This document shows, piece after piece, positions 22,981-63,782 of a stretch of DNA of 64,000 bases (within the stretch, counting starts at the first letter, position 1; each line of letters starts with the position of its first letter). Made by a program: the position numbers and the translations under genes. Under the pieces are notes generated by a model. The model ran no database searches. It was not told the DNA's origin and saw only the letters and a program-made list of their open reading frames with translations. The DNA comes from Rhizophagus irregularis (taxonomy: Eukaryota), in NCBI RefSeq assembly GCF_026210795.1, contig NC_089435.1, forward strand, positions 4,898,001 through 4,962,000, read 5' to 3'.

Positions 22981-25900
22981 GATCGTAATTTACTTAATAA
23001 TTGAAATGAATAATATTTAAGGAAAAAAATATTTATTCACTTTTTTAAAAAAGAATTTTACGGTATTTAAATGTTTAACGTTACACTTAGCATTATAACA
23101 TGGTTGCATAGAACGGCGGAATCATAATATTCAAGTATTTATTTTTTCACAATAATATAATTAATGCACACCCACATACTCTATGCAAATTTATTAGCAC
23201 AATTTCCACATGTATTGCATAAAATCATAAGATAAAAATAGCAAATTCAATAATGTTAAAACGTTACCCAAATAATTAAATTAATTTTTTGGCTTGAAAA
23301 TACGCTGTGTAAAATAAGATGATCCAATAAGAAATAAATTGTTACGATGTTTGTGATCAACAAGAATGATCAAACCTAAATAAATATGCAGTGTATTATC
23401 GTGTTAAATTGCATTTGAAAAATTCAAAAGTACTGTAGATGACTTAAATGCTGATTGAAAAGTTAACTATCTCAAAAAAAAAAATTTCTTGAAACTATGA
23501 ATTTTCCTTGCCGATGAAAGTCTTGCGATTACATAACCTTCATGAATGTTTGAATTTATAAATAAAAAAACAAATAGTATAACGATTCACTTTAGGCATA
23601 AAATTGGTTAAATATATAATGTGGACCGCAGGGTCGATTATCCGTAGAAGTTGCATAAAAAACAGAATGGTTAAAATAATAGATTCTATTTTAAATTTCT
23701 ATATCAAGTAATATAATGAATTGGCTTCTGCATGTATTTATAATTTATTAAATATACAGTATATTATTGGTTGGGGAATAGTTATGTCGGTCACAGGACC
23801 AGATATTTGGGCAACGTAATAGTAAATATTTTTTGGATATGACGCAGCATATTTACAGAATTACAGTAGAGTCAGGCTACACTTCAATATAAATGTAATA
23901 AAAACAGTATTTATAGTAAAATATATATATACATTTCACGGTCCTATTTATAGTCTACATACAGTTATGTAATATACTTTATATACATACAGTAATTAAT
24001 AAAAACCTAATTTAGATAATTGAACCGAAGATCTATTCTTTTACTAGACTTTAAATAAACTGCCCAAAAAATAAAGTTTTTTAAGACTAAATAAAAATAA
24101 TAATGAAAATATATATAAAAGTTTCGGCTCTTTGTTTCAGATAATACAAAGATATTTGTTATCAATAAAGCTAAATTCGAAAATGGGATTAGGATTTACA
24201 CAAAGAAACTTTTTGAACTCATTTACAATAACTCTCTTTTGGGAAGTAATGATGACGAACAATTTACTTTTTTTTCTTGGCCATTTTTAGAGAATTATAA
24301 ATTGGCTTTATGTACCTGCTGCTTAAAATGAAAATCTCATCAAGTAACACTAAACTTGATCTTGATTTAGTACTCTTCTTTCTTTTTGGTTTTTATTCCT
24401 TGTTCGCATTGTAGAAACAATAGAAACAATAGAAAAATGTTGAATGTTGTGTATATATGTACATAAAAGGAAGTTCTGTTTAATCGGCTGTTAATTTAAC
24501 CGAAGGGTACAAATTTAAATGTCTCAGGTACAGATAGATCAATCATTTTTTTTTCCGACTTAATAATTATTAATGATACGTTATAGTTTCATTATAATTT
24601 AAGGAAAGGATGTATGATAAGTTATGTCAAATGACCGTCATAATATTAACTTGATTTGCTAAATAGACCAAGAAAAATCTTGTTACGTCACAACTTTTTT
24701 GTCAATTTTTTTTTTTTATACCAACCAAATAACAGAGTAATTAAACCAAAAAATGATACTGTATACACTAGGGCCAGCAAAATCTTATGTGACACAAAAT
24801 TAATATAATATATATTATCAGTTATCCTCATAAGTTCATGCAGATTTTACTTAATTGTTATTTAGGTCGGTTATCTCATATTACTATGTATTAGCATAAT
24901 AATAAAATTATTGGATAGTAACGGAAGTTTATTATAAAAATTGCATGAACGGTCCCGTCAAACCGATAATATATAATAATTGAATATTAAATCTTACCTG
25001 GGGGAGTCTAGTTTCTACTTTTATAAATTAGCTAAAGGATGCACAATATATTAATTTAGCTCATTAATATAAATTTTATGTTATCAAAAAATTAAAAAGC
25101 ACCAGGAATTCTAACGTTAATTGCAAAAGTTCTTAGATTAGTATGTTGCAGTGATTCTAATAAAAAATGTGTAGGTCCATCGGTACGCACGCCTAACAAC
25201 AGTACAATTGTTTAAAATTCGTTTATTTCATATGATGATCAACAAATTTCGCAAGAATTACTCATTATTTACATAGGATCATGTTATTCATGTATAGAAA
25301 AACTTTATAGTTATCCAATAGTATTTTATATTATTATTTATACGCGTAATAAAATAATATTTATATACATTATCAATACTATAAATTAATTAATGTGGAA
25401 AATTAAAAAAGTGCAGTTATTAAATGAAAAATTACCTCCTTAAAGGTGATAAAATTATACTTTGTTAGACTATTTAGACTATTGATAAACTATTTATACA
25501 TGATCATAGAGGCATTATATAATATAAAGCTCATTAATTCTTTCTGGTGCAATTGGTGCAATAGGAATAATTGTTCTGCCATTTTTTGTTTTATAACAAA
25601 ATAGTTTCGCCAATTAAGTATTATAAACTTTTGATATATTACTTAAAAAAACCAATTCCTTCCAAAAAAAAAACCAATTCGAAACCATAAACGGAGTGAT
25701 AAGCCACTAAATTATCATGTGCGTCATGTGCGTCATTGTGCATCCGATATTATCACTTATTTTTTGATCGACATATTGATCAAAATTCGTATTAAAATTC
25801 GTATTTATCACTAAATTTGATTAGTGAGACAAATCGCACACACGTACGCCACAAACAATACGCCCCCCTAAATTGGGACGGGCTTGTAATCCAAATTAAT

Positions 25901-36565: not shown

Positions 36566-39094
36566 TTAATCTTGGTTTGTATTGTTTCTTGTGATGTTAA
36601 GATTATTTAAATTTTGGCCAATTTCATTTTTAACAGCTTGAAGGAGTTCATTTTTTAAATTTTGACCAATTTCATTTTTAACAGCTTGAAGAATTTCATC
36701 TTTTAAAATTTGTGATGATATCCTATTATTATTAGGTGTTGAAATTACTTCTTGCCCATAATTATAATTATTAGTATTAACAATTGCAGGAGCTGGAATT
36801 GTTGGTTCGTGATCACTAGTATTTTCATTTTGAAGCGTTTGCATAATTTCTTGCCCATGATGATCATTGACTGGAATTATTATTAGTTCATGGTTGGTTG
36901 TATTTTCATTTTCGGGTGTTAGAATAATTTCTTGCTTATGATAGTTATTCTTATTAATTATTGGAGGTGGAATTATTATTGGATAATTGGACGTACTTTC
37001 ATTTCTAGGTATTTGATCAATTTGAATAGTTTCTTGCTCATTATTATTGATATCTTGTTCATAATTATGAATATCCCTTACGATAGGAAACTCCTTTTCT
37101 TCTTGACTGTAATCATTATTATTATCGTTTTCATGAATAGTTTTTTGTTTATTTTTTTTCCATTTATATATCAAGAAACTTCCAACTGATAAAAAAACAC
37201 CACCCAATGAAGATCCCACAACTACACAAGCTATATTGTCTGAAATATTATGTGGGTCTGACATATTATGTGGTGATGAAGAAGAATGTGAAGGCGAAGG
37301 TGAATGCGAAGGTGGTAGCGAAGGTGGTGGTAATGGTGGCAGTGTTGATGGTGGTGTTGGTGGTGGTGGCGATGGCATTTTTGGATCAAATTCTGTTGTC
37401 CATATATATTCATCATTATTACTAATATCAAGCAATAATATATCACTTTCATCTGTTTTATCATAACCAATTCCTATTAAATCAAATTGTTTTTGTTAAA
37501 ACTAGTTAACCTGATTAAGTAATAATTTAAGGAATATTATATTTACCAAATGATACAACCATATATTTTCCAATTACATTTGCTTGATGAAGAGCTCTAG
37601 GCTTTGGGATTTTTCCAGAAATTTTTGGAATATACCAATTATTATTAGCTAAATCTAATACGTAAAGTGTAGTATCTAAATATCCAGGATTTATAAAATA
37701 TCCTCCAAAAATTATAATTCTTTTACCATCTAAACCTGTTAAAATATAATGAAAATTTACTATTACTAATATTATTAATCTTTTAAAATAATCATAGCGT
37801 TCTTATTTGATTACATACCAAGAACAGCGGAAAAACCAGCTCTATTAGAAGGGATATTTCCTGATGTTACCTAAATTTAATAATTGAAATTAATTATTCA
37901 AACTGAATATAAAAATTTTCATCATAATAATTTGCATAACTTACCCTGTAAAAAAAAAATGTCCGGAAATTGTAGCTAAAAACATCCGGAAAATGTCCGT
38001 GTGTCCGGAAAACGTCCAGAAAATTGCAATATTCCGGACACTTTCTGGACGCTGGGTCTGAACCCTCCTAGACATTTTCTGGACATTTTCTGGAAAATGG
38101 AAATTTTCCAACGTCCGGAATATTGCAATATTCCGGACATATTCCAGACAAATAAACATTTTCCGGACGTTTTCAGCTACAATTTCCGGACATTCTTTTT
38201 TTATAGGGTTACTTTTGTATCCCAATTGTCATTAATCATATCATATATATAAATCTACAAATAATTTATCATAATTAATAGATTTATCTTTAAAAAAAAA
38301 TTTTATATTTACAAAATATACCTCACTTAATGTTAAAGTAGTTCCTTTAACAATATTCAAAGTATTAGAATTAAAAGAAGTAGTATCATAGTCATTACCG
38401 CCTAAACAATAAGTGTTCATTAATAAAATAACAGATATATTTAAATAAATATAATATGTCGCTTACCCATGTAAATAATTTTATTGTTAGGTAATAAAAT
38501 GGCCCCATAATCAGTTCTTGGAGTTGGAGCATTAATTATACTTCCTTTACTCCAATTAAGATTTATTGTATCTAAAATAAGCATGTCATTTACAAAATCA
38601 GTATTTGTGCACCCACCCCATAAATACATCCTTCCGTCGTTATTAATAATGCCTGTTAAACCCCGTTTTCTAATTGTATTAACTCCAGCTATTTTTGGAA
38701 TACTCCATACAATACTTTGTGAATCAAATGTATAAACCAATGACATTGTTTGATCTGTACTAGTTCCTCCGTATAAAAACAGAGTATAATTATTTGGACC
38801 ACCTTTAACTGATGCTGCAAAACCATGCGGCGGAACCATATTAATATTTGATAAATCTTGCCATGATAATTCTTGAGTATTAAATAGTACAGAAACGTCA
38901 AGATAAAAAAATTCTTTTATTACATTTCTGTTTAAATCCAACCCACCCAAAATATACAATTTATTATCAATAAGTGTAGCAGTATGACGACAATATACAT
39001 TTGGCTTAAAGGGTGTCATTTGACAATTTACTTCAACTAATACTTGTATTAGTATCCATAATATAATGAAGTAAACTGAAGAATTTCTTGACAT
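36566..39094 (-). CDS. Kelch-repeat type I membrane protein, copy 3; 6 exons, 632 aa if intron 3 still splices
   Basis: Exons 39094-38467, 38401-38322, 38254-38213, 37870-37819, 37735-37547, 37473-36566 join in frame. The intron-3 donor is changed from GTAAGT to GTAACC by a MITE. Confidence 0.8.
37944..38208. mobile_element. CACTA/CMC-like MITE (265 bp; CCCTG/CCCTA ends, 3-bp TSD TTA)
   Basis: ~50-bp TIRs and many tccgga subrepeats. The empty site ataacttacttttgtat is in copies 2 and 4. A near-identical copy lies at 58514. Confidence 0.95.
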
Positions 39095-39803
39095 GATCGT
39101 AATTTATTTAATACTAGTAGAAATGAATAATATTTAAAGAAAAAAATATTAATTCACTTTTTAAAAAAAGAATTTTACGGTATTTAAATTTTTAACGTTA
39201 CACTTATTAGCATTAAAAACATGGATGCATAGAACGGCGGGATCATAATATTCAAGTATTTTATTTTTCATTAATGCACACTCACATACCCTATGAAATT
39301 TATTAGCACAATCCACATGTATTGCATAAAATCATAAGAAAATAATAACAAATCCAATAATGTTAAAACGTTACCCAAATAATTATTAATTCTTTGACTT
39401 GAAAATACGCTGTGTAAAAAAAGATGTTCCAATAAAAAATAAATTGTTACAACAAGAATGATTTTAATTCTTTAAATTATACCTAAATAAATGTGCAGTG
39501 TATTATCGTGTTAAATTGCATTTGAAAAATTCAAAAATAGATGACTTAAATGCTGATTGAAAGTTAAGAATTTATCTTTCAAAAGAAAAAAAAAATTTTC
39601 TTGAAACTATGATGAATATTGATAAAAAAACAAATAGTATAATAATATATACATATATATCTTTCACTTTTTGCATAAAATTGGTTAAATATATAGATCC
39701 TTAACGGTAACAAGAGAATGGTTAAAATAATAGTTTCTATATTAAATTTCTATATCAAGTAATATTATAATGAATTGGATTCCGCATGTATTTATAATTA
39801 CAC

Positions 39804-42524: not shown

Positions 42525-44814
42525 TTAATCTTGGTTTGTATTGTTCCTTGTGATGTTAAGATTATTTAAATTTTGGCCAATTTCATTTTTAACAGCTTGA
42601 AGGAGTTCATTTTTCAAGTTTTGACCAATTTCATTTTTAACAGCTTGAAGAATATCATCTTTAAAAATTTGTGATGATATCCTATTATTATTAGGTGTTG
42701 AAATTACTTCTTGCTCATAATTATAATTATTAGTATTAACTATTGCAGGAGCTGGAATTGTTGGTTCGTGATCACTAGTATTTTCATTTTGGAACGTTTG
42801 CATAATTTCTTGCCCATGATGATCATTGAGTGGAATTATTATTGGTTCATGGTTGGTTGTATTTTCATTTTCGGGTGCTAGTATAATTTCTTGCCCATGA
42901 TGATCATTGACTGGAATTATTATTGGTTCATGGTTGGTTGTATTTTCATTTTCGGGTGTTAGAATTATTTCTTGCTTATGATAGTTATTCTTATTAATTA
43001 TTGGAGGTGGAATTATTATTGGTTTATAATTAGACGTACTTTCATTTCTAGGTATTTGATCAATTTGAATAGTTTCTTGCTCATTATTATTGATATCTTT
43101 TTCATTATTATAAATATCCCTTATGATAGGAAGCTCCTTTTCCTCTTGACTGTAATCATCATTTTCATGAATAATTTTTTGTTTATTTTTATTCCATTTA
43201 TATATCAAGAAACTTCCAACTGATAACAAAATACCACTCAATAAAGATCCCACAACTATACCAGCTATATTACCTGAATTATTTGGTGGTGGTGAAGAAG
43301 AAAGTGAAGGCGAAGATGAAGGCGAAGGTGGTGGCGAAGGTGGTGGTAATGGTGGTAGTGTTGATGGTGGTGGCGATGGCATTTTTGGATCAAATATTGT
43401 TGTCCATATATATTCTTCATTATTACTAATATCAAGCAATAATATATCACTTTCAACTGTTTTATCATAACCTTCTCCTGTTAAATCAAATTGTTTTTGT
43501 TAAAACTAGTTATCTGCTTAAGTAATAATTTAAGGAATATTATATTTACCAAATGATACAACCATATATTTTCCAATTACATTTGTTTGATGAAAAGCTC
43601 TAGGCTTTGGGATTTTTCCAGAAATTTTTGGAATGTACCAATTATAATTAGCTAAATCTAATACATAAAGTGAAGTATCTAAATATCCGGGATTTATAAA
43701 ATATCCTCCAAAAATTATGATTCTTTTACCATCTAAACCTGTTAAAAATATATAATGAAAATTTACCATTACTAATATTAAACTTAAATAATAATCATAG
43801 CGTTCTTGTTTGATTACATACCAAGAACAGCGGAAAAACCACCTCTATTAGAAGGGATTTTTCCTAATGCTACCTAAATTTAATAATTGAAATTAATTCA
43901 CAAAAATTTTCATCATAATAATATGCATAACTTACTTTTGTATCCCAATTGTCATTAATCATATCATATACATAAATCTACAAATAATTTATAATTAATT
44001 AGATTATTTTTTTAGAAAAAAAAAATTTATATATTTAGTAAATATACCTCACTTAATGTTAAAGCAGCTCCTTTAACAATATTCAAAGTATTAGTATCAA
44101 AACTAGTAGTAGCATCATTACCGCCTAAACAAAAAGTGTTCATTAATAAAATAACAAATATATTTAAATAAATATAATATGTCGCTTACCCATATAAATA
44201 ATTTTATTGTTAGGTAATAAAATGGCCCCATAATCAGTTCTTGGAGTTGGAGCATTAATTATACTTCCTTTACTCCAATTAAGATTTATTGTATCTAAAA
44301 TAAGCATGTCATTTACAAAATCAGTATTTGTGCACCCACCCCATAAATACATCCTTCCGTCGTTATTAATAATGCCTGTTAAACTCCGTTTTCTAATTGT
44401 ATTAACTCCAGCTATCTTTGGAATACTCCATACAATACTTTGTGAATCAAATGTATAAACCAATGCCATTGTTTGATCAGCTGTTAATCCTCCGTATAAA
44501 AATAGAGTATCATTATTTACACCACCTTTAACTGACATTGCAGAAAAATGAAGTGGAACCATATTAATATTTGATAAATCTTGCCATGATAATTCTTGAG
44601 TACTAAATGGTACAGAAACATCAAGATAAAAAAATTCTTTTAGTCCATTGTTGTTTAAACCCAGTCCACCCAAAATATACAATTTATTATCAATAAGTGT
44701 AGCAGTATGACGACTATATACACTTGGTTTAAAGGGCGTCATTTGACAATTTACTTTAACTAATACTTGTAATAGTATCCATAATATGAAGTAAACTGAA
44801 GAATTTCCTGACAT
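42525..44814 (-). CDS. Kelch-repeat type I membrane protein, copy 4; 6 exons, 645 aa
   Basis: Exons 44814-44190, 44124-44048, 43977-43936, 43873-43822, 43738-43550, 43477-42525 join in frame (1938 nt). The tail has an extra tandem duplication (QEIIL.PENENTTNHEPIIIP.NDHHG). Confidence 0.92.
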
Positions 44815-45385
44815 GATCGTAATTTATATAATAGTAAAAATGAATAATATTTTAATATTTAAAGAAAAAAATATTATTCACTTTTTAAAAAAAGAATTTT
44901 ACGGTATTTAAATTTTTAGTGTTACACTTAGCATTAAAAACATGGTTGCATAGAATGGTGGGATCATAATATTCAAGTATTTATTTTTCACAATAATATA
45001 ATTAATGCACACCCACATACCCTATGCAAATTTATTAGCACAATTTCCACATGTATTGCATTGCATAAAACCATAAGATAATAATAACAAATCTAATAAT
45101 GTTAAAACGTTACCCAAATAATTAAATTAATTTTTTGGCTTGAAAATATGTTGTGTAAAAAAAGATGATCCAATAAGAAATAAATTGTTACAACAAGAAT
45201 GAACCTAAATAAATATGCAGTGTATTATCGTGTTAAATTGCATTTGAAAAATTCAAAAATAAATGACTTAAATGCTGATTGAAAAGTCAAGAATTTATCT
45301 TTCAAAAGAATGAATTTTCCTTGCTGATGAAAGTCTTGCGGGTCATGAATATTGATAAATAAACAAAATAGTATAATAATATATA

Positions 45386-53222: not shown

Positions 53223-55250
53223 TTAGTTAATCTGGTTTATTATTACCCGATTGCGGCCACTTTCTTTGGCCTTTCGACAAGCCTCTTCAGCATGATTCAA
53301 TAAGTCAGTAGAAGTTTCTACCGATGAGTTTATTTCGAAAACACCAATGCTAAGCGTAATAGAAAATTTTTCCTCATTGAAAGTAATTGAGTGTTTTTCA
53401 ACAGAATGTCAAATTTTTTCAGCAATTTCAGAGGCCGATTTTGCATCAGTAGTATTATTAAGAAGAATAGTAAATTCATCTCCACCATATCGTGCAAAAA
53501 TATCCTTAGGACCAATATGTTCATTTTTAATTAACTCGGACAATTCTTTTAAAATGTGGACTCCAGATTCATGGCTATGTTGTTTATTGATTTCTCCGAA
53601 TTTATCCACATCAAAAAACAAAAAACTCAAACTTTGTTTATTTTCTCTAGCATTTTCGAATTCATTTTCCAAGCTTTTCCGCAAATAATCCGTGTTGTAA
53701 ACGGGTAAAAGTTTATCCATACGGTTCTCATATTTTCCAGCGGGAAGGTATTGGAAAACTGCTCTTCCTAATTTAATTAAATCGTCTTTTTCTAAAGTTT
53801 GAGAAGCTCGAAATTCGAGTTTTTTATCATTTACATAAATCCCAGATTTAGATCCCAAATCGAAAATTTCGACTTTTCCTTGAAAACTTTTAATTTTTGC
53901 ATGCTGTTTACCAAGTTCTTGATCTTTTATAATAATATGATTTGATTCAGTTCTTCCAACAAATGTTTCATTTTGGGTAAGGAAGAGATATGGGGTTTCT
54001 TCATATAAACCTTTATTAATAAATAAACAAGCTTCTTTCTTTGACGGAGCATTATTTCTCTTAAGGTAAACATTTGGAATATAATCAGAATCTTGATATA
54101 AATGGTTAATATCAATGTCTCCAAGGCTTCGAGCGATCTCTTCAATTGATGGTCGTTTTTTAGGATCGTTGCTCCATGCACTTTCATAAAGCTCTATGTA
54201 ATCTATTGGAGTTGAATTGACTGGAATTTCCTTATTTTTCTCATGAGGGATTTTGCCACTAGATATTTGCCATAGTATCAATCCAAGGCTGTAAATATCT
54301 GAAGATTTGTCGTATTTATAATCAGCGTTAGAACACATCGGATCCACGTAAATATTATCCCCAGGATCAGATATTTCTTTAAGATCGTCAAGTTCGGAAA
54401 GATGATCAAGAGACACGGATTGATTAAATCCTATAATCACAAATGTGCCATCATGATCTAATATGTATTTTGGACACTATTCATGACATTTATGTATAAA
54501 TTTTAGTAAATAATGCAATAAAAATTAAGAATATGAATTGTTTAGCAGGGTCTAAACTAGTTTGGCTGTTAATAATAAATCGATTATTTTTTGCCAATTT
54601 TAATACTCACCAAAACACGGTGTACAATATTTGCTTTATGGATATATTCTACTAAGCCATTGGAAATATCTGCAGCTATTTTTATTTTAAGAGTCCAATC
54701 CATTTTTTCAATATTATTTTTATTTTCTAAATAATCCTTAAGATTTTCACCATAGCATTGCTGCTGAAACACCATAGAGTAATACTTCTTAGAAGGTTCT
54801 GAAATAATGATGTGATAAAGTGAATTATAGATCGGATTAAATGCGAGAATTTAGATGTTTAAAATAGAAATCATATATGTAACCTTTTGTAACGCCATAA
54901 AATCTCATTACGTTTTTATTTTGGTCAACGTCTTTTAAATTCATTACATACCTATTTGTTTTCATTTAAAAATTAGGTGGAAAATTGAAATATAGAACTT
55001 ATGTACATTAACAATCGATGATTTAGGGCTCGTTATAATGTTAATCACTTCTCTGTGAAGCTTTTTATAATATTTATCTTCGTCACTCTAATCTAGTATA
55101 TATTTGATAATGACTCTGCCTTGAGATTCTATATAGGCTTTTTTGATCTCATGTGGCCCTACGTTTGGAATCGCTTCTACGCATTCAAAATTGTCGTATT
55201 TGAACTCCTTTAAAGCACGATTACTGATAAAGATTTGTAATAATATCCAT
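53223..55250 (-). pseudogene. Spliced degenerate protein kinase-FHA-GGDEF (diguanylate-cyclase-like) fusion, disrupted in this copy
   Basis: Exons ~55250-55049, 54951-54884, 54798-54611, 54476-53223. Kinase motifs MRFYGVTK, WTLKIKIAADISNGL, HRVL, YVDP, SDIYSLGLILWQI, KRPS. FHA motifs VGR...QHAKI...DLGSKSGIYVN. GGDEF motifs FFDVDKF, ARYGGDEF and, beyond a TGA at 53409, TLSIGV...AKESGRNRV. Lesions: TAG at 55088, TGA at 53409, frameshifts near 55243 and 54950. Confidence 0.88.
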
Positions 55251-55628
55251 ATTGTTTAGAGGAGGATCACACCGGGTCTGTGGATCTTGTTGATCAATAG
55301 TTAGAAAATGTGATGGTGGTGACCTAGTGGGATTTTCACGAATTATTACACGAGTGTCGAGGGTTAGAGTTCTTTAAAGGAACGTTATAGTAGATGCGCA
55401 AACTTGATTATCGAAGTAATTTCTTTATTGAATTCTTATTGAACTGGTTAGTGAAGAGGATAAAGACCTTTCTTTTAGATACAATTTAAATTAGGAAAAG
55501 GCCCAAAAATTTTATAGATCTATATACAGAATTTTTATACTTTTTCTTTTAACGTACTGTACATGACAGACCAAAATCACTTTATACGGAATAATGGAGA
55601 TAAGCTGAATTTAGTGGCGGCTTATTTT

Positions 55629-55734
55629 AGAATGAGCATCAGAATGAACATCAGAATGAACATCAGAATGGCATCAGAATATGGACATCAGAATGGAGAA
55701 TGAGCATAGAACGGGCATCAGAATGAGCATCAGA
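55629..55734. repeat. 12-bp tandem repeat (agaatgagcatc), ~9 degenerate units
   Basis: Read directly from the sequence. Confidence 0.85.
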
Positions 55735-56230
55735 TCTATTGTTCTAATCAATAATCAATAATTAGAATACAATAAAAAAATAATATTCTATTAAGTTGTC
55801 AATAAAATATTATATTTGTATTCAATAGAATTAATGGAATAAGATCTATTGTTCCATTCATGAAACTTTAAAACCGGTTTTTATAAATGCTTTTAGATTA
55901 TCTAAATTATCGTTTATACATGTTTTTATTTTGGTATTACATTTTTCTGTGAAACACTTCATATATTGATTTGTGAGTTAATATCATGTCTTAAACTCAA
56001 TTTCATTGATTTCGTTAAACGACCTATATATAGGTTAGTTGTGAAAACAAATATGCATGTACCATGAGGTAATTTCATTGTCGCATTTAGTTTTCGTAAT
56101 GATCAAGCGGTCACACAAATAATTTATGCATGTTAAATTTCAATGATTTTCTGTGATACATATTATCTAGTTTACACTAGGCGACAAATAAAGCCTATCA
56201 CTGAAGGCTTGTTCAAAAATTCTTACATAA

Positions 56231-56325
56231 CCCTATAAAAAAAACTCCGATAAATGATCATTTTCTAATTTGTATTCCAAGATAACCTCGACATGTGATC
56301 AATTTCTAAAAAAATTTTTATAGGG
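56231..56325. mobile_element. 95-bp CCCTA-ended mini-element with TAA TSD
   Basis: TAA[ccctataaaaa...tttttataggg]TAA; same termini as the 37944/58514 family. Confidence 0.75.
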
Positions 56326-58513
56326 TAATAATAAAAATTATGTGAAAATTTAGTAAATTTATTATAAAAATAAATGTCCATCTTTTTAAATTAATTTCTT
56401 TAAAGAATAAATATTATAATTTTAATTGATTTATTGCCGTTTTCAAAATGATGTACGCAGTTAAATTTGAATAAAAGAAAAGAAACCCGAAAACCGGACG
56501 AAAATCGGACGAAATATGGACAAAAAAAGGATGAAAACCGGGCGAATATTGGTATTCGAATATACAATCAATTCATTTATGAAATAAGAATTGTCAATAT
56601 TTTCTGAAGATAATCGTTTAACTTTGATATATAACGATGCAATCTATCTGTTCAGGTATAGATAAAGTAGAACTTTCAGCAGTATGCATAACGATAAAAT
56701 AGTTGTTATTAACAGTATGATTGTCATTCTATTGTTCTAATCAATAATTAGAAAATAATAATAAAATAAAAATTCTATTAAGTTGGCAATAAAATATTCT
56801 ATCGGTATCCAATAGAATCAATGGAATAAGATCTATTGCTCCATTCGTAAAACTTTAAACCGGTTTTTTTGGCCGGAAGCTCCATAAAATTCTTCTTCCT
56901 TAGAACTAACTATTATGGAAGTTTTAGAACTAAGTTTAAATTCTTGTGATGACGAGACAAAAGAACAAAAAGCAAGAATAATGCAGGTAATTAAGAACAA
57001 AGAAGTTGTCATTATCGTTTATCTGAAGAGAAGGATCTCGTAAGAAGTGGAAAAAGAGAAGATTGTTTGCTTTTATATGAAATTATTATAAGTAGAGGCT
57101 TTGTTACCAAGCCTTAATGATAAACAGCTCCACTTAGGGGCTTAATATTTAGAAAATGTTGACTGTTTTTTTTTTTGATGATAAAATTTAAATTTTTAAA
57201 TGACGTGTCCAATAATTCATAGACTACACTCGTTGTATTTAAATAAAATTAACTTTTGACCTCAATCTTGGAAGCAGAACTTACGACAAAGAAATAGATT
57301 TTCGCGCGTTTCTATGAATTTAACAAATTCATCAGGATCGATAATAGGTCCTTGATGCTTATGATGGCAATACGTTGAACTTCGTCATTTAGGAAATCAC
57401 GAAAAATATCAAATTCTATGCATTAAAAATTTTTTGAATAAAACTGATAAATTAAATATTTGGTTTCAAGCGAATTGTGTTCTTCAATTCAGCTTTCAAT
57501 TCATGTATTTATTAGTCACTAGATCCTCAACTGATTTTGCTTCTCGGCTATATGTTTTCATAATTTTTCAATATGTTATAACATTTTGTTCAGCTCATTG
57601 AGCCTTGTCTTAGGCAAGTATAGCAACAAGCAAATAATAATACTGCGCTTTTCTATATCCTTTACATTCTCTTGCATGTTATTGAGCTCAAGTTACTATA
57701 TTTCCCCTAAGTAAGAAAAATAAAACGAGCTATAAATTATTTGTTTCAGAACAACTATGGTTCGATTTCATTCAACAATCTTTAATTATTCATTATTTAA
57801 TGAATGCGTTAGTTAGCTTTATAGGAGTTGTTTTATTCTGCGCAAGATTTATTTTATATTGTTGCTTTTTAACCTCCTTTAAAAATAAATACTTGATTTA
57901 TTGATTTATTGATTAAAGTTCGCCATACTGCTCCAAATAAATACAATGAAAGTTATCATAATATCTCCCCTCTGTTAACATTATTAAATGAAATACAATT
58001 TTCTATTTGAATAACAACATCAGATACGTGATATTTTTATATTACGCCCAAGTTTTCTCAATAAAAATTTCAGCCGATTCAGCCAAAAATACTTATGTAG
58101 GAAACTCAGATTTCGATGGGTTGCACGAATTACGATAATAAAATATAAATAGATTAAAAGATATTGTCACCTAAAATTAGAAAAACTTCTTTACTGCTTG
58201 CGCCATTTAATTTTTACTTCCTTAGTCTAATAGTATATCGATCTAAGCATATCTGATATTTGAACAAAATGTTTTTTTACTGATCAATAATTTATTTATT
58301 GTAAAATTATAGAACATTTAATAATGTTCTCATGTTATAATTATGCAGTGACGTTCAAGACAGTAATATATCTAACCTCAAGTGAAAGTAAGGTACATTA
58401 TCTGTTCATAATCTTACATAAAACGTTATCATTATTTGTATTATAGTATTACATTGTATAAATAAATATAAAGATTGCAAGTGAATTATAGTGTATAGCC
58501 AATAAATGGTCAA

Positions 58514-58777
58514 CCCTATAAAAAAAGAATGTCCGGAAATTGTAGCTGAAAACGTCCGGAAATGTTTATTTGTCTGGAATATGTCCGGAATATTGCAATA
58601 TTCCGGACGTTGGAAAATTTCCATTTTCCGGAAAATGTCCAGAAAATGTCTAGGAGGGTTCAGACCCAGCGTCCAGAAAGTGTCCAGAATATTGCAATTT
58701 TCTGGACGTTTTCCGGACACACGGACATTTTCCGGATGTTTTTAGCTACAATTTCCGGACATTTTTTTTTTACAGGG
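58514..58777. mobile_element. Second copy of the 37944 MITE (264 bp), inverted, TSD CAA
   Basis: CAA[ccctataaaaaaagaatgtccgg...ccggacattttttttttacaggg]CAA; nearly identical to the reverse complement of 37944-38208. Confidence 0.95.
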
Positions 58778-59230
58778 CAAACGTACTAGATAAGATAGTC
58801 TCATTAAACCATTTGATGTGCCAAAAGAAAATTTAGGTTTAAAGTAGATTTATTTCTAAAAGCCATACTACATAATATAAATCGTAATAACAAAAAAAAA
58901 ATAAAAATAAAAAGGAAAAAGGAAAAAAAATTTAAATTTTCTATAACCAAAAGAATTTAAGTTTCGCGCATTTTTAGCTAAAATTATTTACAATTTTTGT
59001 CCAAAACTGCGACATCGGTATGCTTTTCATACAGATTATATTCGCTTTTCTCGACATGGAGATAATTTTTATCCACGAAATATTAAATGATTAGGAGGAT
59101 TCAAATAGAAAGGATGTGAATGTGAAAGTTTTTTTACTGATGTCTGTGTAATAAAAGTGTGTGAGTGTCAGAATAGAGGCAAAAGTATATAAGAAAAAAG
59201 AGTTGTAAAGATTTTTCACTGTCTGGATGT

Positions 59231-60714
59231 TCATTTATTAACAATATCTACAAATTAAAAAAAATGAATGAACGTCAATATAAAGAATAATGAAAAAAAG
59301 CAAAAAACACGTTATATAGAAAATGAGAAAATAAGAAAGGTATATATAAATTTCTTACCAGGAAGTTCACGGCAATCTTGATCAACTTCTGAAAAGGATG
59401 AATGTTAATATAGAGCACGAATAAATAAGATGATGGCTTCAAAATTTACCTGCGGATGGCTCTTGCGATTTAGGAGTTGGATTATACATTCCTGCACGAT
59501 ATCTCCTGTCTTCTTTGCTTTTTTCATCATCAGCTTCCTCAAATTGTTTCGCTTCCTCATCACTGCGGCTCTCCTCAGTAGGGAACCAACCTAGCACGGA
59601 CTGCCATTTCATTATTTTCTCTTTAATGTCTAGAGCAGTTGGACGATTTTGTGGATCACTATCCCAACAATTTCTTATCAAAGTTGCATAGCATTCGGGT
59701 ATTTCTTTGGGAATTTCAGGTCTTAGGCCATTATTCTTGATCCGACATACAAGTTCATTATCATAGGAGAGATCTGCATAAGGTTTTTCCCCAGTTCCCA
59801 CTTCCCATAAGATCATTGCAAAGCTATAAATATCAGATGCCTCAGTGTATGGTTTTTTATTTAATACTTCAGGAGCGATGTAAGGTATGACACCAATAAT
59901 TTTTTCCGTTTTTTCTTCACTGGCTTGTTTAGATAACCCCAAGTCGGTGATACGTGAGGGATACAGAAGATCTTTGAACTGCAAAATGTTTCCAGTATGG
60001 AGATCACGATGTGTCATACCAGTTACATGAATTATTTCCAAGCCCGCGACTATGTTTCGAAGAATATCAAGTTTTCGACGCCAATATAATTTGGCTTTGT
60101 TATTTTGAAGGTATTCTCGTAAATCACCATTTTCCGCGTATTCCATTACTATTGCATAATTTTTCGTATCCGGATTTTGAGTGATGCCAAGATAGCTAAT
60201 AAGATGACGACTAGCACATTGAAAATATGCTTCAAGCTGCAAATTGTTTAATAAGTTAATTAAAAATGTGTGGCATACTAATACAATTAATGACATTATT
60301 AACGTGAAATACATATAATGATAATACCTCAGCGATAAAATCATCACTAATATTGTCCGAATTGTTCATAGTTTTTAAAACAACTTTCATTTTTCCTTGT
60401 CTATGCCATTGATTCATTTTATGATTCCATCGTACAACATAACCATTTATCCAAGTTGCCAGAGATATTGTTCCATAACCACCTTTAGCAAAATCTTTTT
60501 CGTTTATTTCAAGATCTTCATAGGGAATCCATTCAAGAAAAAGAATAGTGTTGATAAGGGATGGTCTAACATATTTAACTAGTTCGTCAATTTTTTTGTT
60601 TCCACTTGACCGATTTTCATATTTTTTTTGATTTTGATATTGCTCTTTAATACATGGTTGACAAGGGAGCTTATCTATTTTACACTGATCACATTCTGAA
60701 CAGTTGTGAGACAT
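59231..60714 (-). CDS. Tyrosine-kinase-like (TKL-type) protein kinase with Cys-rich N-terminus; 4 exons
   Basis: Exons 60714-60328, 60236-59450, 59388-59359, 59247-59231 (last two tentative). Motifs SGNKKIDEL, EWIPY, AKGGYG, VVLK, MEYAENG, HRDLHTGNIL, ITDLG, YIAPE, SDIYSF, CWDSDPQNRP; catalytic residues intact. Confidence 0.92.
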
Positions 60715-61445
60715 TGGCCTAAAGTAAAAAATCAAGATATGTAAAACAAGAACTTCCTTTGACTCCTTTCTTTCTTGTCGTTGTGAAAAATTTTGTAATA
60801 TGTATATTTTTAAAAGTATATGAGACAAGAGGAAAAACAAAGAATTTATTTTCACAAGTTATCCAATTTATAAGATTCATTAACATTCAAGATAACACAA
60901 TTTATTAATATTATTTAAAATATATTTTTTCATTTGGAAGAAATTATTGAATATGTTACAAATAGAATAGGAACAATGAAATTCTTTTCTTTCAAATTTT
61001 CAAATTTGGAAATTTTTATGGTTTGCCCAGAAGGCCAGAACAGATTTTCCATTTCAAATCATAACAAGGTGTGACTTGTGAGCCGTGAACGCCAAGGATT
61101 TCTATAAATGACTAAAATAATCACCTTATCCTAAAAAAAAAATTGTTTATTTATACAATAAAACTTGTTTTGTCTTAATTTTTTTGTTTAAACACACGGG
61201 CTGTGCATTGTGCAGTGATGTACATTGGAAGCTTCTAATGGAATTGGAAGGTTCGGAAGCTTCCAATGAGCATGTGTAACAAGTTTATTTTTTATAATGT
61301 ATGTCGAAATATCATTGATTATCATTTGAATGAAATCAAATAAGTTATAAATGAACTTGTCAGAATTTTTTCTTCTAATTCAATTATATTTTAAATTATT
61401 TTTTCAATTATTTTTTAAAAAAAAATAAATTTCACAAATAAAATC

Positions 61446-63782
61446 ATGAAAGAAACATTTTCAAGTTTTAACGTTGATGTATTAGAAAGTGTTAAAGATC
61501 ATGGAATAAAAGTTATACAAACAACTGCAGATATTATTCAAAATTTAATTCCACATTTTGATATAGCAATTAATATAGCATCATGTATATTAGAGATTTA
61601 TGAAAAAGCGAAAACGAATAAAAAAATTTGTAGAGTATTCGCTGATAGAGTGGAATTAGCTTTAACATCAATAAATTATTTAAAAAGGCATATGGATAAA
61701 AATGTTGAAAAATTTCGAGAAAAAAGTTATTTTAAAAATTTTATGCATTTTATTGAAGTATTAGACAAGATTAAAAATTTTGTTGAAGAAATTTCTGAAA
61801 TTAAAGGTTTTAAAAAATATCTCGTCGCTAATGTAATTAATCAACAACTTAATGAAATTAGGGATGATTTTGATCATTGGTATAAATCATTACAACTTGT
61901 TATTACTATTGGTGATGTCATCAGTCGTGAAATTGAAAATGAAGAGATAAAAAGTGATTTAAGTCAATTAAAAGGTCTTTATGAAGATATTAAACAAAAT
62001 TTTAATATAACTGATCAAAAATTATCTATTATTACTGCAAAAATTGAAATGTTAGAGAAAAATTCTTCAATTTTGGATAAATCCAAACCACCTGAAATTG
62101 GTCCGGAACATCTTACTGTACCAGAAGAACCCATCATAGAACGTAATAGTGTTATATTAAGAAAATATAAAAATTTTGATGTCGCTTGTAAGCCAACTAA
62201 ATATTCACTTAACGATACTAGTCCGGATTCAAAAAAAGCTGGTGCAACTCTAACAATTTGGAATGAATTAAATGAATGTCCTTATATAATTAAATTTTTT
62301 GGAATTTCAAATTTGGATATATACACTGAAAATGTTATGGTTTTAGAATGGGCTGAATTTGGTGATTTAAAAAGTCTTTATGAGAGTAAGAATCTTAATT
62401 GGAAACTTAAATTAAGTATGGCGAGAGATATTTTTCGTGGTCTTTGTTTCTTGAATTATATTCGTAAGTTCTGTTTATTTAGTATTAGTTATTTTTTATT
62501 AATATTTACGTCGTAAACTAAATTTATATCAACCACAGGTGTTTTACATCATGATGTTAGATGTGAAAATATTTTGGTAAGTTCTTTGATTCATCAGTTA
62601 TTAATTAAATATTGACTATATGCTGATTTTATTAATCTGTATAATTTAAAGGTAGCTGAAGGATTTAAATGTAAAATAACCAATTTTACTTTAAGCCGTA
62701 AAACAAAATATGTAACTACCAAAGTACATGATGATGAGAGTTCGAAACAAATGATGCGTTGGATGGCTCCTGAGAAACTTAAATCTTATCAAAAATCAAA
62801 TCAAAATACGAAAATAGAACCATATACTTATGCGTGTGAAATGTTTAGGTATGTAATCAGGTTGGCTAAAGATAAATTATATAAATAAGAAACAACTTTT
62901 TAAATTCTTTTTTTCTTTTATAGTTTTGGAATGCTTCTTTGGGAGCTTTCTTTTAATAGAGTACCATATAAAGACATGGAATATGATGAAATAATTGAAC
63001 ATGTTATGAGTGGAAAACGAGAAACATTAGACTTTGTAAATTGTCCACGTGATATAATTGATGGTTTCACCGAAATTATTACATTGGCATGGCAACATGA
63101 AAATCGCAAGCGTCCGTCAACCCAAAAGGTCTCAAAAATTCTTGAATCATTATATAAATCTTACGAAAATAATTTATTAAATTTAAATGAAGAAACAAAT
63201 TATGAATCTCAAAAATGTTCTTCTACTATCTCTACCACTACCAGTAATAATACTATTGAATTTGTTAATGAGTATGTCCTTGATCTTTTACCATTATCAA
63301 AAGGTATTGAACATCATAATTTAAAAGCTAAGAAAACGAAATCAGAACAAGATTACAAAATTTGTTGGGAATGTTTCAATGCACACGCAAATCTTGGTAA
63401 TAAAACGGCCATGTATTGGAAAGGACTTTATTTATGGAAGGGTTTTGTTGAAGAGAATCAAATTGAAGCAAAAAGATTATTTAAAATTGCAGCTGACTCT
63501 GGAATAGCTGAAGCTCAATTAGAATATGCTTTTGCTTATGATAGTGAGAATCTTGAAAATCCTGATTTACCTTTTAATGAAAAAGAATGTTGGAAATATT
63601 TAAAAATGGCCGCTGAAAATAGTAATCCTACAGCATTATACCACGTAGGTATTACTTATTATAATGGAAATGTGGGAGTGCAACAAGATAAAGAAAGAGG
63701 TATTGAATATCTTAAACTTTCCGCTTTACAAGTTAATCCTAAAGCAATTGAAACATTAAATAAATACGGAGTTAATCTTTAA
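61446..63782 (+). CDS. MLKL-like N-terminal helical bundle + degenerate kinase + Sel1-like repeats; 4 exons, 703 aa
   Basis: Exons 61446-62463, 62539-62576, 62652-62848, 62924-63782 join in frame (2112 nt). The N-terminus (IYEKAKTNKKICRVFADRVE...VLDKIKNFVEEI) resembles the MLKL N-terminal domain. The kinase lacks a Gly loop and has HHDVRCEN, NFT in place of DFG, and WMAPE. C-terminal Sel1 repeats (AKRLFKIAADSG, YLKMAAENSNPTA, YLKLSALQ). Confidence 0.9.

What the first reader, a model, noticed from the sequence alone, without database searches (positions are those of the whole stretch)
53223..63782. Three-gene cluster: kinase-FHA-GGDEF, active TKL kinase and head-to-head MLKL-like protein
Seen: an intact-looking kinase (ATG 60714, minus) and an MLKL-like bundle-degenerate kinase-Sel1 gene (ATG 61446, plus) diverge from a ~730-bp intergenic region, with the nucleotide-cyclase-like fusion ~4 kb away. 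Established: RIPK3 activates the pseudokinase MLKL in necroptosis, fungal cell-death genes often occur as adjacent pairs, and cyclic dinucleotides act as immune second messengers. Inference: a possible sensor/activator/executioner module. Kinase families are greatly expanded in these fungi, so chance adjacency is a real alternative.
Basis: inference. Interest (0 to 1): 0.72.

Follow-up and report, generated by a model that had tools for sequence, protein, structure and literature searches.

The report
Kinase beside MLKL-like gene; dead cyclase
In this mycorrhizal-fungus DNA an expressed working-type kinase and an expressed MLKL-like protein with Sel1 repeats sit head to head, and the nearby cyclase-fusion gene is cut by two stop codons and was not seen in RNA. 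The proposed three-part death module is therefore unsupported, and the kinase/MLKL-like pairing is most likely inherited neighbourhood, not a proven switch.

Summary
All three genes are real and sit where stated. They are letter for letter three consecutive annotated genes of Rhizophagus irregularis DAOM 197198 (OCT59_027817/18/19).

Gene A (pseudokinase-FHA-GGDEF) is a relic. It has two in-frame stops and has lost a base-binding Asp and the I-site Arg. Three poly(A) RNA runs gave no reads over it.

Gene B is a spliced, expressed TKL kinase with every catalytic motif.

Gene C (703 aa) is a true MLKL-like protein. It passes Pfam's MLKL_N cut-off. Full-length mouse MLKL is the best PDB match of its family profile. 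Its modelled N-domain superposes best on the human MLKL executioner domain. Asn replaces the DFG Asp in 12 of 12 relatives. It ends in Sel1 repeats.

B and C share a 731-bp divergent spacer, and both appear as spliced RNA in 5 of 5 transcript assemblies. A B-clade kinase also neighbours a C-clade gene in R. clarus, but not on the contigs of G. cerebriforme. Kinases are the most inflated gene family here. Only 3 of 70 kinase-bearing MLKL-like gene models carry an extra canonical kinase.

Verdict: known family members. The three-gene module is not supported. A B-to-C switch is possible (about 0.2).

Side finding: the fungal FHA-GGDEF module nests within Bdellovibrionota sequences.

The parts
53223..55255 (-). 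Gene A (OCT59_027817): decayed pseudokinase-FHA-GGDEF gene; recognisable coding remnants
   Evidence: ORFs; Pfam; sequence read; 100% identical to public models P0317, P0320, P0321 and P0004. Exon borders of the 5' part are approximate.
55088..55090 (-). In-frame TAG inside the kinase N-lobe exon of A (after ...KYILD)
   Evidence: The 96%-identical homologue P0006 has Glu at this position.
53409..53411 (-). In-frame TGA cutting the GGDEF domain of A after profile position 105 of 161
   Evidence: Arg stands here in 7 of 7 homologues that cover the column. All 4 of 4 public models of the strain end here.
53766..53963 (-). FHA domain of A
   Evidence: Pfam PF00498, E 5.4e-13, residues 172-237 of the ORF 54476..53412
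53226..53720 (-). GGDEF domain of A, split by the TGA (RYGGDEF kept; GD changed to GV; RxxD changed to GPKD)
   Evidence: Pfam PF00990, 9.6e-21 and 6.9e-07 on the two pieces; alignment
58514..58777 (.). MITE-like element (49-nt terminal inverted repeats) in the A-B spacer
   Evidence: Inverted repeat I1, 92% complementary
59231..60714 (-). Gene B (OCT59_027818): TKL kinase. CDS exons 60714-60328, 60236-59450, 59388-59359 and 59247-59231; the 3' UTR runs to about 58862
   Evidence: The model equals P0265. Spliced joints 60236>60328, 59388>59450 and 59247>59359 are seen in RNA. Pfam kinase E 3.5e-41. GGYG, VVLK, HRDLHTGN, DLG and APE are read.
60715..61445 (.). Divergent 731-bp spacer between the ATGs of B and C (25% G+C). 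B transcripts reach about 60820.
   Evidence: contig pieces 60328-60819/60820
61446..63782 (+). Gene C (OCT59_027819): MLKL-like protein, 703 aa. Exons 61446-62463, 62539-62576, 62652-62848 and 62924-63782
   Evidence: The model equals P0253 exactly. All three introns are seen as GT..AG joints in RNA.
61569..61910 (+). MLKL_N-type four-helix-bundle domain of C (residues 42-155)
   Evidence: Pfam PF22215 above its cut-off. Model pLDDT 76.5. Best structural matches are human MLKL executioner domains: 6zz1_A Z 12.9, rmsd 2.4 A over 119 residues; Foldseek ranks 1-5.
62169..63065 (+). Kinase-like domain of C (residues 242-489, across exons 1-4): no Gly loop, VACK, HHDVRCEN, NFT where DFG is expected, APE
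   Evidence: Pfam; sequence read; alignment A2
63200..63779 (+). Sel1-repeat region of C (approximate)
   Evidence: Pfam PF08238, E 2.6e-12; helical repeats 542-698 in the model

Best explanation
The stretch holds three consecutive, separately transcribed members of kinase-fold families that are expanded in Glomeromycotina, and their neighbourhood is most likely inherited gene order rather than a dedicated three-part module.

Shown. Gene A is a truncated, RNA-silent relic of a pseudokinase-FHA-GGDEF family. Gene B is an expressed TKL kinase with all catalytic motifs. Gene C is an expressed MLKL-like protein made of a four-helix-bundle head, a brace, a kinase-like domain whose DFG Asp is Asn throughout the family, and Sel1 repeats.

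Inferred. C likely works as a single-chain sensor-switch-executioner. The Sel1 repeats would bind a partner or ligand, the nucleotide-binding pseudokinase would toggle, and the released helical bundle would oligomerise and attack membranes, as in animal MLKL. B may phosphorylate C, but nothing here requires that.
For: Identity. A, B and C equal OCT59_027817, OCT59_027818 and OCT59_027819, which are consecutive tags; the EXX577xx and GBC156xx accessions are consecutive too.

A is dead. It has two in-frame stops. Arg stands at the TGA position in 7 of 7 homologues. All 4 of 4 public models of the strain stop there. Seven depth bins (53268-55955) have zero reads in each of 3 raw poly(A) RNA runs, about a quarter of each run having been read.

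B is active-type and expressed. Motifs are read, where D227, G229 and the HRD-type loop are invariant or nearly so in 14 sequences. Its spliced joints appear in RNA.

C is MLKL-like.
- Pfam MLKL_N matches 11 of 12 family members.
- The family profile's best PDB hit is full-length mouse MLKL, 4btf_A, E 3.9e-45, in one stretch (query 36-498 against chain 9-466). That is 157.6 bits against about 116-122 for MLKL kinase-only chains and about 120 for B-Raf.
- The N-domain model matches MLKL executioner domains best.
- Asn replaces the DFG Asp in 12 of 12.

The family is large and diversified. There are 334 clusters at 50% identity with E<=0.001. All 10 of 10 sampled clusters are Glomeromycotina. 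The expansion with Sel1 is already reported (PMC8778642, passages read).

Kinases are the most frequent motif of inflated R. irregularis genes, and they cluster with Sel1, Kelch and BTB genes (PMC6123716 and PMC8647823, passages read).

Only 3 of the 70 kinase-bearing proteins, among 149 MLKL_N-like representatives, carry an extra canonical kinase.

In G. cerebriforme the C orthologue lies on contigs of at most 9,677 bp, and the two B-clade kinases lie on contigs of 43,026 and 39,336 bp.
Against: - The B-C pair is head to head with a short spacer, and both genes are present as spliced RNA in 5 of 5 contig-type transcript runs from 3 studies.
- B has no close paralogue in R. irregularis; the next one is 44% identical. 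B is only 27% identical to the kinase domain of C. So the pair is not a recent tandem duplicate or part of an array.
- In R. clarus the single B-clade kinase (GES99216, RclHR1_03140012) is numbered next to C-clade genes (GES99217/8, RclHR1_03140010) on one contig. This fits a retained pair, although orientation and exact spacing there were not seen.
- RIPK1 is among the best solved relatives of the B clade (140.6 bits, after a JAK-type kinase and Roco4).
- C keeps the VAIK Lys and the catalytic-loop Asp and Asn, so it may not be fully dead.
Confidence: 0.6

Rival explanations
1. B and C form a two-gene switch analogous to RIPK3 and MLKL. Transcribed from a shared divergent promoter, the active kinase B would phosphorylate the activation loop of the pseudokinase C and release its four-helix bundle to kill or permeabilise the hypha. 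The Sel1 repeats would add a second input.
For: - Head-to-head layout with 731 bp between the ATGs.
- Both genes are spliced and detected in 5 of 5 transcript assemblies.
- A B-clade kinase is numbered next to C-clade genes in R. clarus.
- B is single copy and not a duplicate of C.
- The B-clade profile scores RIPK1 among its top solved relatives.
- C is collinear with full-length MLKL and has a Ser/Thr-rich activation segment.
- RIPK3 activates MLKL through its pseudokinase activation loop (PMC6013482, abstract read).
Against: - Gene order is expected to be shared between congeners by descent alone.
- There is no linkage on the G. cerebriforme contigs.
- The other C-clade and C-like genes of R. 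irregularis (P0124/P0270, P0127, P0131/2) have no second B-clade kinase to pair with, since B is the only member at 70% identity or more.
- Only 3 of 70 kinase-bearing MLKL_N-like models carry an added canonical kinase, roughly what a kinase-rich genome would give.
- No (I/V)Q(I/V)G tetrad can be read in the tail of B (the RHIM core motif is recalled, not tested by a tool).
- There are no co-expression statistics.
Confidence: 0.2
2. All three genes form a sensor/activator/executioner module in which the GGDEF fusion makes a cyclic dinucleotide signal that feeds the kinase and the MLKL-like protein.
For: - The three genes are consecutive.
- Intact paralogues of A elsewhere keep GG(D/E)EF and the RxxD site.
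- FHA domains read phospho-threonine, which could link a cyclase to kinases (established knowledge).
Against: - In this strain A has two nonsense codons, has lost the base-binding Asp and the I-site Arg, and its kinase part lacks the HRD and DFG Asp residues.
- No reads lay on it in 3 raw RNA runs. Among the contig runs only a 172-nt piece (X7) and one bin (X10) matched.
- About 3.6-4 kb holding a MITE-like element separates A from B.
- The model of the same gene in another isolate (P0006) also lacks the GGDEF part.
Confidence: 0.03
3. C is not a pseudokinase but an atypical active kinase that signals by phosphorylation. Its helical head would then be a regulatory or localisation domain rather than a membrane-damaging executioner.
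For: The VAIK-type Lys, the H(H/R)D catalytic Asp, the catalytic-loop Asn and APE are conserved in the 12 aligned members. Some kinases work without the DFG Asp (recalled: CASK).
Against: No glycine-rich loop is present, and the metal-binding Asp is Asn in 12 of 12. Overall collinearity and best sequence and structure matches are to MLKL.
Confidence: 0.12

Closest known systems
Animal MLKL with its activating kinase RIPK3 (necroptosis)
   Same: C has the same order of parts: four-helix-bundle head, brace, kinase-like domain without the metal-binding Asp. Full-length mouse MLKL is the best PDB match of the family profile. Human MLKL executioner domains are the best structural matches. An active TKL kinase lies next door.
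   Different: C carries C-terminal Sel1 repeats that MLKL lacks, and it keeps the catalytic-loop Asp and Asn and the VAIK Lys. B has no RHIM-like tetrad in its tail (read). No binding, phosphorylation or killing was tested.
Glomeromycotina 'MLKL family' proteins with Sel1 repeats (TCDB 1.A.105 homologues reported in PMC8778642)
   Same: C is a member. The family was reported as found exclusively in Glomeromycotina, expanded there and carrying Sel1 repeats (passages read). My searches agree.
   Different: The passages I read do not mention the conserved DFG-to-Asn change, the fold test or a neighbouring kinase. I did not read the whole paper or its supplements.
Plant MLKLs and CC-R/RPW8-type helical bundles (AtMLKL3, NRG1.1)
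   Same: Same type of N-terminal bundle: NRG1.1 CC-R Z 10.6 and AtMLKL3 Z 9.8. The nearest language-model clusters include plant MLKL_N/RPW8 sets.
   Different: These matches are weaker than those to animal MLKL. Plant MLKLs have no Sel1 repeats. Z values in this range are common among helical bundles (note).
Bacterial FHA-GGDEF diguanylate cyclases of Bdellovibrionota (Bacteriovoracaceae/Oligoflexia)
   Same: The FHA-GGDEF part of gene A's family is 39-43% identical to these proteins of about 310 aa and nests among them in a tree. Intact fungal members keep GG(D/E)EF and RxxD.
   Different: The fungal proteins have a pseudokinase fused in front and have introns. The window's copy is broken. 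No cyclase activity has been shown in any fungus.
Fungal HeLo/HELL cell-death domains paired with adjacent NLR genes (recalled, not searched here)
   Same: A helical membrane-targeting head in fungi; adjacent-gene logic.
   Different: No NLR, no amyloid motif and no HeLo Pfam match was found here. The head matches MLKL_N instead.

Membership tests
MLKL-like proteins | N-terminal four-helix-bundle executioner domain (Pfam MLKL_N) | tested here: met
   PF22215 scores 31.3 and 30.1 bits against a cut-off of 27 and matches 11 of 12 family members. The model's best matches are 6zz1_A and 6zvo_B, Z 12.9 and 12.8, rmsd 2.4 A over 119 residues. Foldseek ranks 1-5 are MLKL, but with E 0.014-0.065. Caveat: Z below about 13 is common for helical bundles.
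MLKL-like proteins | Bundle joined through brace helices to a C-terminal kinase-like domain, collinear with MLKL | tested here: met
   The profile of 12 members aligns in a single stretch, 36-498, to residues 9-466 of full-length mouse MLKL 4btf_A, E 3.9e-45. A long helix spans 122-205 in the model.
MLKL-like proteins | Kinase-like domain is catalytically dead | tested here: inconclusive
   There is no Gly-rich loop and the DFG Asp is Asn in 12 of 12. However, the VAIK Lys and the catalytic-loop Asp and Asn are kept. Activity was not measured.
MLKL-like proteins | Activated by phosphorylation from an upstream RIPK-type kinase; permeabilises membranes | not testable with these tools
This needs biochemistry.
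RIPK3-like activator (for gene B) | Active TKL-group kinase domain | tested here: met
   Pfam kinase E 3.5e-41. GGYG, VVLK, HRDLHTGN, DLG and APE are present. RIPK1 is among the best solved relatives at 140.6 bits.
RIPK3-like activator (for gene B) | RHIM motif with (I/V)Q(I/V)G core for assembly (motif recalled) | tested here: not met
   No such tetrad can be read in the tail of B or its clade in alignment A3. This is by eye only.
GGDEF diguanylate cyclase (for gene A) | Complete GGDEF domain with the GG(D/E)EF site and base- and metal-binding residues | tested here: not met
   RYGGDEF is present, but the TGA at 53411-53409 cuts the domain at profile position 105 of 161. The Asp of the GD pair is Val, whereas it is Asp in 5 and Asn in 2 of 7 homologues (the role of this Asp is recalled from PleD).
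GGDEF diguanylate cyclase (for gene A) | Gene is expressed | tested here: not met
   Zero reads over 53268-55955 in 3 raw poly(A) RNA runs, about 25% of each having been read. Only a 172-nt contig in X7 and one bin in X10 matched.
Conserved functional gene pair (B with C) | Linkage kept across species beyond what gene-order inertia explains | tested here: inconclusive
   Kept in R. irregularis assemblies and, by accession order, in R. clarus. Not seen on G. cerebriforme contigs. The metagenome scan gave one usable locus with no upstream DNA. No genome-wide statistics were possible.

The most novel reading that the evidence does not exclude
B and C are a fungal counterpart of the RIPK/MLKL death switch, retained as a divergent pair since before R. 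irregularis and R. clarus split. The Sel1 repeats make C a self-contained receptor. The hundreds of diversified MLKL-Sel1 genes of arbuscular mycorrhizal fungi would then be an innate-immunity or incompatibility repertoire that uses a pseudokinase instead of an NLR nucleotide switch.
Probability: 0.2. Interest if true: 0.8.

Novelty: new member of a known kind. Interest (0 to 1): 0.42.

Why it matters
If the kinase/MLKL-like pair were a working switch, necroptosis-type killing would reach into an ancient fungal lineage. It would also give a handle on how a coenocytic plant symbiont handles non-self, viruses or endobacteria. As the evidence stands, the locus mainly supplies a clean, RNA-verified example of the Glomeromycotina MLKL-Sel1 family. 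It comes with a fold-level check and a conserved DFG-to-Asn signature, plus one concrete candidate partner kinase to test.

The by-product may matter more. Pseudokinase-FHA-GGDEF proteins occur across Glomeromycotina, and their cyclase module groups with Bdellovibrionota. This hints at bacterial-type cyclic-di-GMP synthesis in a fungus. I found no paper on it in the searches.

Tried and rejected
- Metagenome scan with B: 46 loci, but only L001 (70% identity, 2.5 kb) belongs to the B clade, and it has no upstream DNA. No synteny information.
- Sequencing-run search: no RNA holder listed on record. I therefore laid raw RNA runs of the same species label and contig runs instead.
- RNA depth cannot serve as co-expression. 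Many raw reads over C and B differ consistently from the window (95-99% alike) and probably come from a paralogue or another strain. Contig depth is not quantitative.
- Whole-protein AF2 model of C (pLDDT 74): the N-terminal part was poorly packed, and 4btf ranked only 10th with rmsd 20 A. I rejected this as a fold test and repeated it on the N-domain alone.
- phmmer of the N-domain alone against PDB sequences: only a designed helical protein at E 1.2. Uninformative.
No result of any kind.
- pdb_via_wide was busy; pdb_via was used instead.
- Earlier-findings look-ups by place and by sequence gave nothing.
- Tandem-duplication origin of the pair: rejected, because the kinase domains of B and C are only 27% identical.
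- 'Rosetta-stone' fusions: 3 long gene models (P0325, P0343, P0442) put a canonical kinase in front of an MLKL-like module. That is 3 of 70, and merged neighbouring genes cannot be excluded, so I do not count this as support.
The step was dropped and the borders stay approximate.

Full report
**What is there**

The last 11 kb of the window hold three genes with kinase folds. Models built by hand from the sequence were checked in a script against public proteins.

- Gene C: exons 61446-62463, 62539-62576, 62652-62848 and 62924-63782 give exactly P0253, 703 aa.
- Gene B: exons 60714-60328 and 60236-59442 give P0133, 394 aa. With two further 3' introns B gives P0265, 406 aa.
- By exact look-up these are OCT59_027819 and OCT59_027818 of Rhizophagus irregularis DAOM 197198. 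Gene A is OCT59_027817. The EXX and GBC accessions are consecutive as well.

Eight of the 50 ORFs I scanned in the rest of the window carry Kelch repeats, at about 5.1-5.7, 21.7-23.0, 37.5-39.1 and 43.5-44.8 kb, and none of the 50 is a kinase.

**Gene A is a relic**

Pfam finds a weak kinase C-lobe, an FHA domain and a GGDEF domain in the 355-codon ORF. The last third of the GGDEF domain lies in the next ORF, beyond an in-frame TGA.

- The TGA lies at 53411-53409. In 7 of 7 homologues covering that column the residue is Arg.
- A second in-frame stop, TAG at 55090-55088, interrupts the kinase N-lobe exon. The 96%-identical protein P0006 has Glu there.
- The kinase part reads HRVL..Y where HRD..N is expected and GFN where DFG is expected.
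- The GD pair of the cyclase is GV, and the RxxD site reads GPKD.
- All four public gene models of the strain end at the TGA.
- In three raw poly(A) RNA runs, about a quarter of each having been read, no read lay between 53268 and 55955.
- Among five contig-type runs, only a 172-nt piece (X7) and one bin (X10) touched the gene.

The 'sensor' of the proposed module is therefore broken and silent in this strain.

**Gene B is an ordinary-looking active kinase**

- It has GGYG, VVLK, HRDLHTGN, DLG and APE. Its clade keeps them.
- Its intron 60327-60237 and two 3' introns are seen as joints in RNA reads and contigs.
- The search with exon 2 found 370 proteins at E<=0.001 among 590 candidates. Only ten rows are 70% identical or more: R. 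irregularis itself, two from G. cerebriforme, one from R. clarus, and six unnamed. The next R. irregularis paralogue is 44% identical.
- B is 27% identical to the kinase domain of C, so the pair is not a local duplicate.
- The best solved relatives of the clade profile are a JAK-type kinase (146 bits), Roco4 (144) and RIPK1 (140.6).

**Gene C is MLKL-like**

- Pfam MLKL_N passes its curated cut-off and matches 11 of 12 aligned relatives.
- A profile of the 12 relatives has full-length mouse MLKL as its best PDB match. The match is one stretch covering head, brace and kinase-like domain, about 35-40 bits above kinase-only chains.
- The first whole-protein model was poor in the head.
- The head folded alone (pLDDT 76.5) matches human MLKL executioner domains best. 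Foldseek ranks 1-5 have TM 0.60-0.68 and rmsd 2.7-3.7 A, but E is only 0.014-0.065. VIA-align gives Z 12.9 and 12.8, rmsd 2.4 A over 119 residues. Such Z values are not rare for helical bundles.
- In all 12 relatives the Gly-rich loop is missing and the DFG Asp is Asn. The VAIK Lys, the catalytic-loop Asp and Asn, and APE are kept.
- Sel1 repeats close the protein.
- The head domain defines a large family: 334 clusters at 50% identity with E<=0.001, and 183 with E<=1e-10. Of the 106 best that I scanned (out of 149 available), 80 match MLKL_N, 51 match a kinase and 28 match Sel1. All 10 of 10 sampled clusters are Glomeromycotina.
- The expansion with Sel1 repeats was already reported as exclusive to Glomeromycotina (PMC8778642, passages read).

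**Is the B-C neighbourhood meaningful?**

Points in favour:
- The start codons are 731 bp apart on opposite strands, and B transcripts reach about 60820.
- Both genes are present as spliced RNA in 5 of 5 contig-type runs from three studies.
- In R. clarus the only B-clade kinase (GES99216, RclHR1_03140012) is numbered directly beside two C-clade genes (GES99217/8, RclHR1_03140010). A third C-clade gene (GES99230) sits 13 accession numbers further on the same 1.66-Mb contig. Orientation there was not seen.
- Trees show one B-clade gene per Rhizophagus species and a C clade that duplicated locally.

Points against:
- Congeners share gene order by descent.
- In G. cerebriforme the C orthologue sits on contigs of at most 9,677 bp, while both B-clade kinases sit on contigs of 43,026 and 39,336 bp. 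No long C-family model lies on those two contigs.
- The other C-like genes of R. irregularis have no B-clade partner, because B is unique.
- Kinases are the commonest motif among inflated genes, and they cluster with Sel1, Kelch and BTB genes (PMC6123716 and PMC8647823, passages read).
- Of 149 MLKL_N-like representatives, 70 carry a kinase-like domain, and only 3 of these also carry a canonical kinase in front. Those 3 may be merged gene models.

Tests that could not be done:
- The metagenome scan gave no usable synteny.
- No genome is held for a permutation test.

**Mechanism**

Shown: the anatomy, the splicing, transcription of B and C, and the decay of A.

Inferred: C most likely acts as a single-chain device in which the Sel1 repeats bind a partner, the nucleotide-binding pseudokinase toggles, and the bundle is released to oligomerise on membranes. 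This is by analogy with MLKL, whose pseudokinase is the switch that unmasks the bundle after RIPK3 phosphorylation (PMC6013482, abstract read). B could be that kinase; I put this at about 0.2.

The three-gene reading gets about 0.03. An atypical-kinase reading of C gets about 0.12; it is not exclusive of the others.

**Side finding**

The search with gene A, read through with X at the stop, listed 120 best hits.
- 27 of them carry Glomeromycotina names.
- 23 of those 27 have a GGDEF domain.
- 14 have both kinase and GGDEF domains. They come from Rhizophagus, Gigaspora, Cetraspora, Dentiscutata and Racocetra.

The next best hits are unnamed FHA-GGDEF proteins of about 310 aa, at 39-43% identity. 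A genome scan places their relatives in Bacteriovoracaceae, Oligoflexia and Bdellovibrionia MAGs.

In a quick tree of 64 rows the 13 fungal rows form one clade (SH-aLRT 100). That clade sits inside a 31-row group (SH-aLRT 98) whose named members are all Bdellovibrionota. The search was short, the rooting is midpoint only, and four fungal rows have a deviant composition.

Intact members keep GG(D/E)EF and RxxD. Searches for GGDEF or diguanylate cyclase together with Rhizophagus, Glomeromycot-, horizontal gene transfer or early-diverging fungi found no paper on fungal genes of this kind. Subscription journals and supplements were not covered.

**Verdict**

The B-C pair is a reasonable but unproven candidate. 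C is a further member of an already reported family. The scan noted MLKL-like/Sel1 proteins before on other DNA; I used those notes only as leads.

Noticed in passing
window 53223-55255, and proteins P0002-P0024, loci L047-L058: Pseudokinase-FHA-GGDEF proteins occur in several Glomeromycotina genera. In a quick tree their FHA-GGDEF module forms one clade nested among Bdellovibrionota (Bacteriovoracaceae/Oligoflexia) sequences. This suggests one old bacterial acquisition fused to a kinase fold. Intact members keep GG(D/E)EF and the RxxD site. My five literature searches found no paper on this.
   Followed up: partly
window 56340-56723: A short stretch between A and B is covered by RNA reads on both strands, with 'opposite strands' joints (56459/56462 to 56570) and many consistent differences from the window. 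It looks like a transcribed hairpin or repeat copy, possibly a small-RNA source.
   Followed up: no
window 58514-58777: MITE-like element with 49-nt terminal inverted repeats (92% complementary) and an inner second inverted pair, lying just downstream of gene B's 3' UTR.
   Followed up: no
window 5061-5688, 21683-22989, 37530-39103, 43533-44823: Kelch-repeat ORFs recur at about 5, 22, 38 and 44 kb. Three of the copies sit beside ORFs of about 310 codons without any Pfam match (20699-21643, 36569-37495, 42528-43499). This looks like a tandem array of an expanded Kelch gene family.
   Followed up: no
proteins P0343, P0442, P0325 (Diversispora epigaea and unnamed): Three long gene models place a canonical kinase (HRD plus DLG or DFG) directly in front of an MLKL_N-pseudokinase(-Sel1) module. 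They are either true fusions or merged neighbouring genes.
   Followed up: partly
window 59231-59450: Gene B ends differently in RNA than in the long ORF. Two small 3' introns (59449-59389, with an alternative acceptor 3 nt away, and 59358-59248) remove the ORF's stop and give the 406-aa form.
   Followed up: yes
alignment A3 (B clade), residues about 335-375 of P0265: The B clade shares a conserved acidic C-terminal tail after the kinase domain (W-QSVLGW-PT..SR.D.EA.QFE.ADD.K). It has no Pfam match and its role is unknown.
   Followed up: no
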